This document shows, piece after piece, positions 6,001 to 18,000 of a stretch of 64,000 bases of DNA (positions are counted from its first letter, which is position 1; each line of letters begins with the position of its first letter). This stretch comes from an uncultured bacterium (GTDB taxonomy: Bacteria; Babelota; Babeliae; Babelales; Babelaceae). The stretch lies in assembly GCA_963713855.1 (NCBI GenBank), contig OY970209.1, forward strand, positions 640,001 through 704,000, given 5' to 3'. The position numbers are program-made.

Positions 6001-9000
6001 CTAATTATGAAGAACGAGTCAAATCTGATCTTTTAAAAAGTATCGAAGAAAAGGGTCTCCAGGACCAGTTTGGGCAAATTTTAATTCCTTCAGTCAAGAT
6101 GCGTCAGTTTTTCGAAGTTGGCGATGCTATGCGTGACCAACAGCTCTTTCCGGGCTATGTTCTTATTGAGATGGAAGACACCGACGAGAACATTCATTTT
6201 GTCAGCAAGCGCCCTGATGTACGTCGCTTTTTAGGAGGCAATAAGCCAAGCCCATTGTCTAATCGTGAAGTGGAGCGCATTAAAGCTCAAATTAGCGGGG
6301 ATGTTGCGATTCCTACGCAAAAACACGACCTTGAAGTTGGGAAAGAGATCGAGATCAAAGAGGGACCGTTTGCTACTTTTGTTGGCATCATCGATAAAAT
6401 TAATGAAGAAAATCAAAAGCTTACTGTCATGGTAAGTATTTTGGGGAGAATGACTCCTGTTGTATTGAATTTTGATCAAGTAAAGCGATAAGAAAGGTAC
6501 ACTGGTATGGCCAAAGAAATTAAGGCGCGTGTGCGTCTCAGGCTTCCAGGAGGAGCAGCAACACCCGCTCCGCCCGTTGGTTCCATTTTGGGACAGCAAC
6601 AAGTCAATATCATGGATTTTTGTAAGCAGTTTAATGCAAAGACTGCGGATAAAAAAGGACAGACGGTATCCGTGCTTGTAACCATATACGTGGATAAGAA
6701 GTTTGACTTTCAGGTAAAGACAAGTCCTATATCAGAACTTATTAAAAAGAAGCTCAATCTTGCTAAAGGGTCTTCTCAACCAAATAAGCAAAAGGTAGGA
6801 AAGCTCTCGTCAAAAGATGTGGAAGAGATAGCAAAGCAAAAGCTTGTTGATCTTAACACACTTGATCTTGAGCAGGCCAAAAGAACGGTCGCAGGAACAG
6901 CTCGTAGTATGGGCATAGAGGTTGAATAGGGGTTTTTTGTATGCATACACATGGAAAAAAATATACGCAAGCTCGCGGCAAGCTTGATGCAATCAAAAAG
7001 CCCACTTTTTCTTTGCAAGAAGGGCTTTCAAAAGTTAAAGAGTTAGCTTTTGCTCGTTTTGATGAGACGGTAACTGCCAACGTAAATTTGGGCATAGACC
7101 CTCAAAAGGGTGAACAAGCTGTACGAGGCTCGGTACATTTGCCGCATGGCACTGGTAAAAAAGTGCGTGTTCTTGTTTTTGCTAAAGGTGATTACGCTGA
7201 CGCTGCGCGTAAAGCTGGAGCTGAGTATGTTGGCTTTGAAGATCTTTTAGAAAAAATTGAAGCTGGTTGGACTGATTTTGATTACGCGATTGCGACACCA
7301 GATCTGATGGGTGTTGTAGGAAAAGTAGCTAAAATCCTTGGACCACGCGGATTACTACCTAATAAAAAGACGGGAACGGTTACCTTTGATGTTGCAGCTG
7401 TTGTGTCCAACCTTAAGGGCGGACAGCAGTTTTTCAAGAACGATAAAAGTGGAATAGTACACTTTGCCTTTGGTAAAGTCTCTTTTCCTGTTGAAAACCT
7501 CAAAGAAAATTTCCAGGCTTTTATAAAATCTCTGAGCGCAGCTCGTCCTTCGGCAGCTCGAGGAGTTTTTATCAAAAAGATGACGATCTCGTCTACGATG
7601 GGGGTAGGCATTTCTATCAATGCTGATGAAATACGCTAAAACCGGGATGTAAATTATGGCTATGAACCGTCAAGAAAAACAGGTCGTTATTGATTCGCTG
7701 AGTAATGATTTTAAAACGAGCGAGGCTGCGTTTCTTGTTAGTCTTAAAGGGCTAACCGTTAATCAGCTTCAGGAGCTTCGTAAAAATTTAAGAGAAAAAG
7801 GCGGTAAATTACGGCTTGCTAAAAATACGCTTACTAAAAGAGCTGCTCATGAGCTAGAGGCTGTATGTGCACTCGAACCATACCTGAAAAACCAAGTTGG
7901 TATAGTTTTTGCAAAGGGAGATTCTCCTGCAGTGGCAAATGTGCTTTGGACTATTTCGCAATCAAACGAAAAGTTTAGCTTGGTTGTAGGTTGCTTTGAG
8001 TCAAAGCTTATCGATAAAGATATGATTAAGTTTCTAGCTACTTTGCCACCACGACCAGTTCTGCTAGCTCAAGTTTGCGGAACTATAAAAGCACCATTGG
8101 TGGGACACGTGTCTTTATTGCATCAGATGCTTGCTCGGCTGCTGTGGGTCCTTGAAAGTGCAGCAAAAAAACGACAAGCGTAGAACAGTTTTTCAGTCTT
8201 ACTTAAGATATTCTCAAGTTGCTTAACGATGGAGAAAATGCACATGGCAACAAAAATTGAACAGTTAGTACACGATATCAGTTCACTTACGGCTTTAGAA
8301 CTTGCACAGCTTACTAAGACGCTAGAAGGCGTTTTTGGTGTATCGGCAGCTATGACGGCTGCTGCGGCACCTGCTGCTGCGACAGGCGCTGAAGCTGGCG
8401 CTGGTAAAAAGGCTGAAGAAAAAAGTGAATACGTTGTAAAGCTCGTTGATGCTGGAGCTAACAAAATCAACGTTATTAAAGCGCTACGACAAATTAAGAA
8501 AGATCTGGGATTAACCCAAGCACGTGAGCTTGCTGAAAGTGCTCCGGTTGTTTTAGCTGAAGCTGCATCTAAAGATGAAGCTAAAACTATGAAGGAAGCT
8601 CTTGAGGCTGCTGGTGCTAAAGTAGAGCTTTCCTAATTTTTCATATATATATCATGTCTAAGGTATTACGGGGGAGCAGATTGGATGTCTAGCTTGCGTG
8701 CACGTAGAGATACTATTCGTCGATCTTTTGGGAAGATCAAAGATATCGTTCCCGTTCCTAACTTGATTGAGATTCAGTCTCGTTCTTTTAATGAATTTGC
8801 TCAGCTTGACTATTTGCCTGCCGAACGGCAAGCAATGGGTCTTGAAAAAGTCTTTAGGGATATATTCCCTATAGACTACGCCGATAAAATGTCTCTTGAG
8901 TACGTGAGCTATGAGCTGGGAAACTGGGCATGTATTTGTGGCAAGGTGACAGGTATAGCTAATCGTTATACCTGGGTATGCTCCGCTTGTAAACGCTCAG

Positions 9001-15000: not shown

Positions 15001-18000
15001 GGTGAGCGCTATAACAAAGTTATTACCGTTTGGGGTCAAGCGACAGCTGAGGTTGCTGGAAACATGTCCCAGGATCTTGAAAAGCAGGACCAGGAAGCAT
15101 TCTTAAATAAGGAAAAAACAGATCAGCCATTTAACCCGATTTTCATGATGCTCGAGTCCGGAGCAAAAGGCTCAAAAGAGCAGATAAAGCAGCTTGTTGG
15201 TATGCGAGGACTTATGGTAAAGCCAACAGGTGAGATTATGGAAACACCGGTCAAGAGTAACTTTAAGGATGGCTTAGGCGTTTTTGAGTACTTTATTTCC
15301 ACACACGGTGCTCGTAAAGGACAGGCTGATACAGCGCTCCAGACTGCTAAAGCTGGTTATCTAACCCGCCGCCTTGTAGACGTTGCTCAAGATGTTGTAG
15401 TCCTCATTAGCGACTGTAAAACATTAGGTTCGATTGAAGTGGAAGATCTTCAGGAGTCAGGGGATATTGTTTATCCGCTTCTTAATCGTGTGGCTGGGCG
15501 TGTTGCAGCTACTGACATTAAGGATCCGTTGACCGGTCAACTTCTTGTACGTCAGGGAGAGATTATTGGCCGGCCTGAGATTGAGCGACTTAGCGAATCT
15601 GCCGTGAGCAAGATTAAAGTGCGCTCGCCGCTTGTCTGCCAAGCAAAAAGGGGTATTTGTGTTCAATGTTATGGGCTTGATCTTTCTAAAGGGCAGCTTG
15701 TTGAGATTGGTACAACAGTTGGTATCATTGCAGCTCAATCGATTGGTGAACCTGGAACACAGCTTACTATGAGAACTTTCCACATCGGTGGTACTGCAAG
15801 CGTGACGGAGCAGTCGTTTGCGAGCGCAAAGCGCGCAGGTGTTATCCAGTTACGTAATACGCGTAGTATTAAAAATAAGGAAGGGCAATCGGTTGTTATT
15901 AGCCGTAAAGCACGACTTGCTATAGTCTCTCCTGATGGTCGCGAGTTGCAGCGGCATGCTATTGAATATGGCTCGATCCTCTTGGTCCAAGATGGTGATG
16001 CGGTAAAGCCCGGAACCCGCCTTGTTGAGTGGGACCCAAATAGCCGCGTCATTATTACCGAGTATAGCGGTAAAATTGAATTTAATGACCTCATTGAAAA
16101 CGTGACGATGCAAGAGCGTTTTGACGAAGCGACAAATCGTTCTAATAGAGTGGTACTTGAACACAAAGGTGACAAGTATCAGCCTGGTCTTATAATCCTT
16201 GATGCTAAGGGTGACGAGGTTGCGCAATATTACTTGCCAACGGGATCGCTTTTGAATGTCGAAGAGAGACAATCGGTCAAAGCGGGAGATATTCTGGTTA
16301 AGATGCCTCGTGAAATGTCGCGTACTCGGGATATTACAACCGGGGGTCTTCCACGTATTGCTGAGCTTTTTGAAGCGCGAATGGCGAAAGATCCGGCAAT
16401 TCTTTCAGATATTGACGGAGAGGTCGTATTTGGTGGTATCTATCGAGGTTTGCGTAAAGTTTCCGTCGTAAATGGGGATGAATCGTTTGACTATTTCATA
16501 CCGCGAGGTAAACAGCTTAACGTCATAAATGGCGATAAGGTAAGTGCTGGAGATCAGCTTACGTCGGGTACACCGATCTTACATGATATTTTACGTATTT
16601 TAGGTCCTGAGGTTCTTCAAAAGTATTTGGTTAACCAAATACAGGAGATTTACCGCTTACAGGGCATTGATATTAATGACAGACATGTTGAGCTTATTGT
16701 TAGACAGATGATGCGTAAAGTGCGCATTGTCGATCCTGGCGATACCGACTTTTTGATCGGTGATCGTGTGGATAAGATGCACTTTAAGGTGGTTAATGCG
16801 GCTTTAGCGGCTGAGGGAAAACGTGTAGCAGTGGCAAAGCCGGTGCTTATGGGTATAACCTTAGCTTCCTTAGGAACTGAAAGCTTTATATCAGCAGCCT
16901 CTTTCCAAGAGACGACGCGTATTTTAGCAGAAGCGACTATTGGGGGCCAAGTTGACTATCTTTATGGTTTAAAAGAGAATATTATTATAGGTAAGCTGAT
17001 TCCTGCAGGTACTGGGCTAAAGCATTTCAGACAGAAATACCTTGAAGAGTACACAAAGCAGGGACCAACGCCTGAGGTAGAATAAAAAAAAGACAGGCGC
17101 GTAGCTCAGAGGCAGAGCACTGCTTTGACGTAGCAGGGGTCAGCGGTTCAAATCCGCTCGCGCCTACCAAACATAAGAGAGGTTTTTTGGATGGTTAATC
17201 CGGAACGTAAAAGAAACGTTATGCAAGATTACCGCGTCAACGATAAAGATACTGGTTCAATAGAACTACAAGTAGCTATGCTTACTGATCGTATCAACAT
17301 GCTTAATAAGCATCTGAGTGATAATAAACATGATTATTCATCACAAGTTGGGCTTATGAAGCTTGTTGGTAGGCGTAGACGCTTTTTGAGGTATCTAGCA
17401 CGCACAAATCCTGTAACGTATAAAAATATTATTGAACGTTTAGGGCTACGCGCTTAAGATAGTTTTACGACACTTACTGTAGCCATAGGTTTATAGGAAT
17501 GATAGAAAAAAAATTTAGATTTGAAGACGCAGGGTATGAAGTAACGCTTGGCAAGTTTGCTCAACAAGCAGATGGTGCGGCATGGATTCAACAGGGAGGT
17601 ACGATTGTTCTTGCAACGGTCGTTTCTACTCCGGCCAAGGAATTTCCCGGCTTCCTGCCTTTGACCGTTGATTACCGTGAGCTTTTTTCGGCCGCTGGTA
17701 AAATCCCAGGTGGATATTTTAAGCGTGAAGGTAAGTTTACCGATAAAGAGGTCTTAACTGCTCGCCTTATTGATCGGGCTATAAGGCCTCTTTTTCCTGT
17801 TAACTTTTTTAACCAGGTTCAAATTCTTGCAACAGTATATTCTGTTGATAAAGAGCATATGCCTCACGGCCTTGCTCTGCTTGCAAGCTCGATCGCGTTG
17901 ATGAGTTCTAAAATCCCTTTTTTGGGTCCTGTGGGTATAGCTGAAGTTGCTCGTGTCAAAGGCAGCTGGGTTGTAAATCCAACCTATCCTCAAACACTTG

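What a model noticed while it worked through the whole genome (the two positions that open the first line are those of the whole stretch)
8685..17085. RNA polymerase without Gre factors, Mfd, recognisable omega; one sigma
Babelales transcribe with a single sigma factor and without GreA/B proofreading factors, the Mfd repair-coupling factor or a recognisable omega subunit, while keeping NusA, NusG, Rho, CarD and a DksA/TraR protein. They join cyanobacteria as a whole lineage without Gre, and they also lack Mfd.
Evidence so far: GreA_GreB 0 of 26, TRCF 0 of 21 and RNA_pol_Rpb6 0 of 21 genomes, with controls positive in 9, 10 and 14 of 14. One Sigma70_r2 gene. No omega-sized ORF after gmk.
(Added by a program. 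Inside this text positions count along the whole contig: contig position 640,001 is position 1 of the stretch shown here. "Call 12" and the like, gene names such as g00115 and contig names such as C1 are that model's own, and its searches are not shown. The text may have been shortened before it was handed on; [...] marks where a part breaks off. The agent that wrote the report below was given it as the finding of a first reader that could run no searches.)

Follow-up and report, generated by a model that had tools for sequence, protein, structure and literature searches.

The report
Bacterial RNA polymerase lacking three helpers
Babelota, a phylum of bacteria that live inside protists, appear to transcribe without the proofreading Gre factors, the repair-coupling motor Mfd and the small omega subunit, and the patch of their polymerase where omega normally docks has decayed, which suggests omega is really gone rather than just unrecognisable.

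Summary
The absences hold at phylum scale. Gre, Mfd and omega profiles each pass cut-off in 1 of 261 Babelota genomes, each time on a foreign-looking contig. Positive controls: sigma70 185 of 191, DksA 77 of 81. One RpoD is the rule (176 of 191), but two genomes carry a tandem duplicate. Sigma54 (0 of 121) and RelA/SpoT (2 weak of 191) are missing too. Profiles also miss chlamydial omega (0 of 5), so I tested the docking site. The beta-prime helix that binds omega (E. coli 474-482) has lost E475 and its hydrophobic face in Babelota, as in Patescibacteria and Chloroflexota (reported omega-less). It is intact in Chlamydiota and most other bacteria. Omega loss is therefore probably real. The cyanobacterial proofreading substitutions are not present; beta-prime L783Q and beta N568T are fixed but untested. 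Most likely, stalled polymerases are removed (Rho, DksA, UvrD) rather than rescued; this step is inferred. Each loss alone has precedent; I found the triple loss in no paper and no earlier scan note. The window's rpoB/rpoC carry three probable assembly frameshifts.

The parts
5970..6491 (+). nusG (retained elongation factor)
   Evidence: Pfam NusG+KOW
8685..13008 (+). rpoB (beta), split by one frameshift near 11980, probably an assembly indel
8922..9092 (+). Cys-rich insertion in beta (59 aa after E. coli residue 76; probable zinc ribbon), shared with Acidobacteriota
9222..9230 (+). beta IKE strand (recalled as the CarD/Mfd docking site), kept; fits retention of CarD
   Evidence: sequence; role recalled
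10596..10622 (+). beta D-loop II reading EGQT (E. coli EGPN): N568T in 32 of 32 Babelota and 1 of 148 other beta subunits; P567Q is common elsewhere (37 of 148)
12968..17085 (+). rpoC (beta-prime), split by two frameshifts (~13646, ~14320), probably assembly indels
14383..14403 (+). catalytic NADFDGD motif, intact
14419..14460 (+). omega-docking helix of beta-prime (E. coli 470-483), decayed: T, M, Q, K at 474, 475, 478, 482 where most bacteria have hydrophobic, E, hydrophobic, hydrophobic
15307..15363 (+). bridge helix: L783Q (54 of 54 other Babelota); K789Q, N792K, S793A in this genome only
15709..15741 (+). beta-prime region G before the trigger loop: E913 replaced (0 of 54 Babelota keep E; 58 of 67 diverse bacteria do)
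16330..16356 (+). C-terminal hinge of the trigger loop after an SI3-type insertion; G1136 kept; one extra residue here and in 3 of the 50 related loci

Best explanation
Babelota RNA polymerase is a four-chain core (alpha2, beta, beta-prime) with, as a rule, one RpoD-type sigma. Gre, Mfd, omega, sigma54 and the ppGpp synthetase were lost in the common ancestor during adaptation to life inside protists. SHOWN: the phylum-wide absences. STRONGLY INFERRED: omega is truly gone, because its docking helix on beta-prime turned polar. INFERRED: the cell copes by removing stalled or backtracked polymerases rather than rescuing them. An omega-less elongation complex lets go more easily; Rho terminates it; DksA, without ppGpp, is the only known secondary-channel factor left; UvrD/UvrAB handle lesions; CarD supports open-complex formation by the single sigma. 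Proofreading rests on intrinsic cleavage, possibly tuned by lineage-fixed active-centre changes (beta-prime L783Q, beta N568T). Odds: Gre and Mfd absence about 0.93, true omega loss about 0.85, removal-instead-of-rescue as the main coping route about 0.4.
For: Absences with positive controls. Docking helix: E475 kept in 2 of 54 Babelota, 8 of 31 Patescibacteria and 1 of 33 Chloroflexota, against 67 of 74 diverse bacteria. Hydrophobic 478: 17/54, 6/31, 6/33 vs 68/74. Hydrophobic 482: 4/53, 2/31, 2/33 vs 66/74. Of 255 conserved-hydrophobic positions only 478 and 482 turn polar in all three lineages; of 382 conserved positions only E475 is lost in all three. Chlamydiota, whose omega the profile misses (0 of 5) but whose omega-sized ORF follows gmk, keep the full signature in 28 of 28 loci read and E475 in 30 of 30. 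A model of E. coli beta-prime 340-930 with omega puts 474-475, 477-479 and 481-483 at the interface (score 0.63, best control 0.05, runs agree in at least 97% of contacts, partner pLDDT at least 77; the mark is reached by 51 of 78 solved and 2 of 108 mismatched pairs; a textbook pair, used only to read off residues). Across its 22 interface residues the shift from the diverse set is -1.35 in Babelota vs -0.23 elsewhere, and -0.22 vs -0.08 in Chlamydiota. Mechanistic precedent: omega-less E. coli RNAP is more sensitive to termination and its loss suppresses genotoxic sensitivity of dksA, rho-down and seqA strains (PMC13192885, preprint). DksA keeps its DxxD tip in 30 of 30 aligned. Rho, UvrA, UvrB and UvrD are present.
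Against: Sequence searches cannot exclude a divergent omega: a profile without chlamydial members found chlamydial omega only at E=7 or worse. The signature is imperfect: 10 of 74 diverse bacteria score 2 of 4 or less, and the 5 of these I tested all have omega, including a spirochaete scoring 1. Babelota beta-prime is fast-changing (37 of 382 conserved positions altered, against 13 and 6 in the other two lineages). The Chlamydiota control is redundant (8 distinct helices in 28). The losses are not obligately coupled: two Patescibacteria lack omega and Mfd but keep Gre, and two Chloroflexota lack omega but keep Mfd. The preprint reports no greAB or mfd double mutants in the passages I read, and omega loss worsened growth of dksA and rho-down strains without stress. 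L783A is silent and L783G does not change cleavage in E. coli (PMC3077646; PMC4756841). No expression or biochemical data exist here.
Confidence: 0.55

Rival explanations
1. Plain reductive loss with no specific compensation: slow intracellular growth and few long operons make backtracking, collisions and transcription errors tolerable, and the fixed polymerase changes are drift.
For: RelA/SpoT, sigma54, RecG (in G000) and in many genomes gmk are gone too. Many conserved polymerase positions changed. None of the known hydrolysis-boosting residues is fixed.
Against: GreA is essential in Mycoplasma genitalium and M. pneumoniae (PMC4598747), and two smaller Patescibacteria genomes keep two Gre genes each, so small size alone does not remove Gre. 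DksA, CarD and Rho are kept.
Confidence: 0.3
2. A self-proofreading polymerase as in cyanobacteria, reached by different residues (bridge-helix L783Q and L770F, D-loop II P567Q/N568T, fork-loop and F-loop changes, T or I at 940).
For: L783Q in 54 of 54 Babelota and 0 of 70 diverse bacteria. N568T in 32 of 32 vs 1 of 148. L783 lies in the bridge-helix hinge (PMC3077646) and P567 is in the proofreading site (PMC4756841).
Against: F773 is kept in 54 of 54, N792 in 52 of 54 and G1136 in 48 of 51; T at 940 is as common as V in bacteria with Gre. L783A, L783G and beta P567A had no significant effect in E. coli.
Confidence: 0.25
3. Omega is present but cryptic and has co-evolved with a remodelled docking surface, or an unrelated small protein took its place.
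For: Precedent in Chlamydiae (PMC9973325). Profiles are blind to such proteins. One omega-bearing spirochaete has a weak signature.
Against: Chlamydial omega stayed after gmk and kept the docking helix; Babelota show neither. No omega-like ORF seen beside yicC, metG, rpoD, carD or rpoA in G000. The 45 weak-hit loci share no recurrent small ORF. The surface change is hydrophobic to mixed polar and differs between genomes (50 distinct helices in 54), as expected of an exposed, unconstrained face.
Confidence: 0.13
4. DksA has taken over the anti-backtracking or cleavage-stimulating role of Gre.
For: It is the only known secondary-channel factor, in 77 of 81 genomes, with two tip aspartates, and it has no ppGpp partner. 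Partial Gre/DksA redundancy is described in E. coli (PMC4598747).
Against: The tip is an ordinary DksA DxxDxA (23 of 30; V or T at the last place in 7), and DksA is not known to stimulate cleavage (own knowledge).
Confidence: 0.15

Closest known systems
Cyanobacterial Gre-less RNA polymerase (Riaz-Bradley et al., PMC7026648)
   Same: Whole lineage without Gre factors.
   Different: The Synechococcus control keeps omega and Mfd and gives no DksA match. Its compensating residues (A940V, F773V, G1136Q, N792D) are not fixed in Babelota.
Aquificaceae, Dictyoglomaceae, Fusobacteriaceae (PMC4598747)
   Same: No Gre factors.
   Different: Listed as lacking all secondary-channel factors; Babelota keep DksA. 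Their omega and Mfd were not tested here.
Omega-less Patescibacteriota and Chloroflexota (PMC13192885 Table S1)
   Same: No omega found, and the same decay of the beta-prime docking helix (shown here).
   Different: Both Patescibacteria tested keep Gre; both Chloroflexota tested keep Mfd and one keeps Gre.
Chlamydial cryptic omega, CTL0286 (PMC9973325)
   Same: Obligate intracellular; omega invisible to Pfam and NCBIfam.
   Different: Gene sits after gmk and the docking helix is intact; neither holds in Babelota.
Mycoplasma/Ureaplasma and tiny insect endosymbionts (PMC9973325; PMC8321222)
   Same: Reduced transcription sets. Mycoplasma lack omega; the endosymbionts have one sigma.
   Different: Mycoplasma keep an essential GreA. 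The insect symbionts have about 150 to a few hundred genes, whereas Babelota are mostly 0.8-1.9 Mb with a full-length polymerase.

Membership tests
Gre-less lineage | No GreA/GreB-family gene in complete genomes | tested here: met
   1 of 261 over cut-off, on a Patescibacteria-like contig; N-domain profile 0 of 5, though it also missed G119's Gre-like proteins; no tblastn hit for E. coli GreA in G000
Cyanobacterial-type self-proofreading RNAP | Hydrolysis-boosting residues V940, V773, Q1136, D792 | tested here: not met
   T/I940, F773, G1136 (48 of 51), N792 (52 of 54)
Cyanobacterial-type self-proofreading RNAP | High intrinsic transcript hydrolysis | not testable with these tools
   needs purified enzyme
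Omega-less RNAP | No omega gene by profile or synteny | tested here: met
   weak alone, since chlamydial omega is missed too
Omega-less RNAP | Docking helix of beta-prime decayed (criterion derived here) | tested here: met
   score of 3 or 4 out of 4 in 0 of 53 Babelota, 1 of 31 Patescibacteria, 0 of 33 Chloroflexota, 64 of 74 diverse bacteria and 28 of 28 Chlamydiota
Omega-less RNAP | No omega-fold protein in the proteome or in purified enzyme | not testable with these tools
   needs a proteome-wide fold screen or mass spectrometry
Chlamydia-type cryptic omega | Small ORF after gmk and intact docking helix | tested here: not met
Mfd-less lineage | No TRCF-domain protein | tested here: met
   1 of 261, on a 5.6-kb contig; E. 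coli Mfd finds only weak helicase-domain matches in G000
Single-sigma bacterium | One sigma70-family gene and no sigma54 | tested here: inconclusive
   176 of 191 have one match and 6 none. Of 9 with more: one split gene (G109), two tandem RpoD duplicates (G120, G121), six with extra shorter sigma-like frames of untested origin. Sigma54 0 of 121.

The most novel reading that the evidence does not exclude
Babelota run the leanest transcription-rescue system of any megabase-scale bacterial phylum: omega was shed so that stalled polymerases fall off, which made both Gre and Mfd dispensable, while a ppGpp-free DksA and a re-tuned active centre (L783Q, N568T) supply fidelity. The polar switch of the beta-prime 474-482 helix is then a general sequence test that tells true omega loss from cryptic omega in any genome.
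Probability: 0.3. Interest if true: 0.8.

Novelty: new variant of a known kind. Interest (0 to 1): 0.62.

Why it matters
[quoted passage not shown] The docking-helix signature also gives independent support to the tentative omega losses in Patescibacteria and Chloroflexota. A natural polymerase living without Gre, Mfd, omega and ppGpp makes two open questions testable in one enzyme: what these factors are needed for, and whether omega trades processivity against release of stalled complexes. Cultured members exist (PMC4378268, PMC6561590).

Tried and rejected
Omega-beta-prime fusion: the one omega hit in a 1378-aa frame was a eukaryote/archaea-type Rpb1-Rpb6 fusion on another contig. Weak omega hits (30 of 261 at E<=0.5; 15 of 191 at E<=0.1): the 45 loci compared are unrelated except two runs hitting the same site, two UvrB genes and one same-genus pair. 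Home-made omega profiles (5 and 9 sequences) on G000 six-frame ORFs: best E about 1; on 202 Babelota loci: best E 0.2. The small-ORF list of G000 (190 of 1321 crude gene calls) showed nothing omega-like by eye. The one-residue trigger-loop insertion is not phylum-wide. K789Q, an E. coli rpo* allele (PMC9254596), is private to this assembly and absent from G009. Sequencing runs: none was listed, so frameshifts and K789Q could not be checked against reads. The rim-helix tip is conserved, so it shows no trace of Gre loss. The Cys-rich beta insertion as a built-in proofreading domain: rejected, since a like insertion occurs in Acidobacteriota and it has no conserved acidic hairpin. No literature statement on which beta-prime residues touch omega was found, hence the model. 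Babelota papers searched for transcription terms did not mention these losses. Earlier-finding look-ups gave no note on this.
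Full report
What is at the coordinates. The stretch 8685-17085 is rpoB-rpoC in a normal nusG-rplKAJL-rpoBC cluster. 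The window lies at 640001-704000 of a single 1.52-Mb contig, 91% complete, not at offset 608000. rpoB is split once and rpoC twice; a same-genus genome has an intact rpoC, so these are probably assembly indels. No sequencing run was listed. The closest beta-prime relatives are titled Dependentiae, TM6, Babeliales or Vermiphilus at 62-76% identity, then a gap to 49-52%. I treated those 50 loci plus 4 as Babelota; some carry uninformative titles.

Absences. All 261 genomes of the phylum were searched in six frames. GreA_GreB matched 3 at E<=0.01 and 1 over cut-off; TRCF 3 and 1; RNA_pol_Rpb6 30 at E<=0.5 and 1 over cut-off. TIGR00690 passed in 0 of 191 genomes at least 90% complete. The Gre exception lies on a 21-kb contig whose CysRS is 81% and 76% identical to two Patescibacteria. 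The Mfd exception is on a 5.6-kb contig and 52% identical to E. coli Mfd. The omega exception is an Rpb1-Rpb6 fusion. Single-copy controls were found at the expected rate: Sigma70_r2 185 of 191 and the 36-position DksA profile 77 of 81. CarD and Rho were found in 5 of 5 each, and NusA, Rho and UvrA/B/D in G000. New absences: sigma54 0 of 121 and RelA/SpoT 2 of 191 over cut-off, both marginal, in 363-387 aa proteins. Kin are not independent; these counts describe one ancestral loss per factor.

Sigma. 176 of 191 genomes have one match. Of nine with more, G109 is a split gene and G120 and G121 have true tandem RpoD-like duplicates. G010, G158, G161, G176, G181 and G183 have extra, shorter sigma-like frames whose origin I did not test.

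Is omega cryptic? Synteny gives nothing: gmk is mostly followed by rRNA genes or an EamA-like transporter in the 30 loci examined (labels read from sequence by eye). Sequence negatives are weak, however. PF01192 passed in 0 of 5 Chlamydiota, although an omega-sized ORF follows gmk in the 4 with gmk, and my own profile without chlamydial members ranked one of them at E=7. I therefore tested the partner surface. Beta-prime was mapped on E. coli numbering for 54 Babelota, 74 diverse bacteria (80 loci from an exact-motif scan, minus 4 Chloroflexota and 2 Patescibacteria, which were moved to their groups), 31 Patescibacteria and 33 Chloroflexota (two duplicate loci dropped; 30 loci kept of 31 genomes each) and 30 Chlamydiota (one genome unscored). 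Patescibacteriota and Chloroflexota are reported omega-less (PMC13192885 Table S1). Omega in the diverse set was assumed and checked in only 6 genomes, all positive.

Result. I first noticed E475 because I recalled this helix as an omega contact; the scans that followed covered all mapped positions. Of 382 conserved positions, E475 is the only one lost in all three lineages. Of 255 conserved-hydrophobic positions, only 478 and 482 become polar in all three. A four-point score (E475; hydrophobic 474, 478, 482) reaches 3-4 in 64 of 74 diverse bacteria and 28 of 28 Chlamydiota read, but in 0 of 53 Babelota, 1 of 31 Patescibacteria and 0 of 33 Chloroflexota. The window's own helix scores 0. A model of the E. 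coli pair, run afterwards, places these residues at the interface (0.63 against best control 0.05; runs agree in at least 97% of contacts; partner pLDDT at least 77; mark reached by 51 of 78 solved and 2 of 108 mismatched pairs; a textbook pair that may pass from memory, used only to list residues). Seven of the 12 most convergently shifted positions among 679 are among its 22 interface residues. The interface shift is -1.35 against -0.23 elsewhere in Babelota (permutation p 0.00015) and -0.22 against -0.08 in Chlamydiota (p 0.24) (positions are not independent, so the p values are descriptive). Against this: omega-bearing bacteria can score low, Babelota beta-prime changes fast, and the Chlamydiota sample is redundant.

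Compensation. The four cyanobacterial substitutions that speed cleavage (PMC7026648, passages) are not fixed in Babelota. Fixed lineage-specific changes near the active centre exist: beta-prime L783Q (54 of 54 against 0 of 70) and beta N568T (32 of 32 against 1 of 148), among 9 of 258 conserved beta positions changed. Other substitutions at L783 and P567 were neutral in E. coli (PMC3077646 and PMC4756841, passages). They are candidates only.

How it most likely works. With no factor to rescue backtracked or lesion-stalled complexes, what remains is machinery that removes them: Rho, DksA and UvrD. In E. coli, loss of omega sensitises the enzyme to termination and relieves genotoxic sensitivity of dksA, rho-down and seqA strains (PMC13192885, preprint; abstract, passages, methods section 13, legends and part 1 of 2 of the supplement). 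I infer that an omega-less Babelota enzyme is cleared rather than rescued, that CarD helps the lone sigma open promoters, and that errors are handled by intrinsic cleavage or tolerated. This step is unproven, and plain drift is a serious rival. The losses are separable in other lineages (two genomes each).

Novelty. Gre loss (PMC4598747, passages) and omega loss (PMC9973325, parts 1-3 of 7; PMC13192885) each have precedent. Ten literature searches and term searches in three Babelota papers (PMC4776705, PMC6561590, PMC4378268; passages) showed no statement of these losses in Babelota and no use of the docking helix as a marker. The library lacks most subscription papers. The preprint's Fig. 1A could not be seen; its supplement has no 'Babel' or 'Dependentiae'. 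The supplements of the Babelota papers were not read and may list gene content. PMC6403173, PMC8321222, PMC7676912 and PMC7700224 were seen as passages and added little. Verdict: a real, phylum-wide, previously unremarked combination; a new variant of a known kind; interest 0.62.

Noticed in passing
window 8922-9092: A 59-aa insertion in RNA polymerase beta with about 8 cysteines, seen in all 26 Babelota the pattern matched and also in Acidobacteriota beta subunits; a possible shared character supporting the proposed Babelota-Acidobacteriota kinship.
   Followed up: partly
window 15307-15363: This assembly alone has K789Q, N792K and S793A in the bridge helix; K789Q is a known E. coli rpo* suppressor allele. 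Real or an assembly error is unsettled.
   Followed up: partly
L005 / L101 (G069:C113): A 175-kb contig binned with a Babelota genome encodes an Rpb1-type subunit fused to an Rpb6/K domain (1378-aa frame); probably a giant virus.
   Followed up: partly
L096, L106, L103, L107 (G120, G121): Tandem duplication of rpoD in family f16; the copies are 71% identical in G120.
   Followed up: partly
phylum-wide: DksA is kept while RelA/SpoT is lost; dksA sits right after a tadA-like gene in the 8 loci printed.
   Followed up: partly
phylum-wide: Guanylate kinase found in only 38 of 61 near-complete genomes; missing in 5 of 5 of genus g32 and 4 of 4 of g143.
   Followed up: no
L038-L067: gmk often lies between prfB and the rRNA operon in Babelota.
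   Followed up: no
G000: No RecG orthologue by tblastn, beside the loss of Mfd.
   Followed up: no
window 12968-14340 and 8685-13008: Other fixed Babelota substitutions at near-invariant polymerase positions: beta-prime N277I, G358D, D329E, T262S; beta N760S, P889L, P590A/G.
   Followed up: no
L098 (G119:C4): The Patescibacteria-like contig carries two divergent Gre-like genes 5.5 kb apart in opposite orientation.
   Followed up: partly
window 17499-21355: pnp, rph and a divergent holA follow rpsO directly after rpoC and a tRNA-Val.
   Followed up: no
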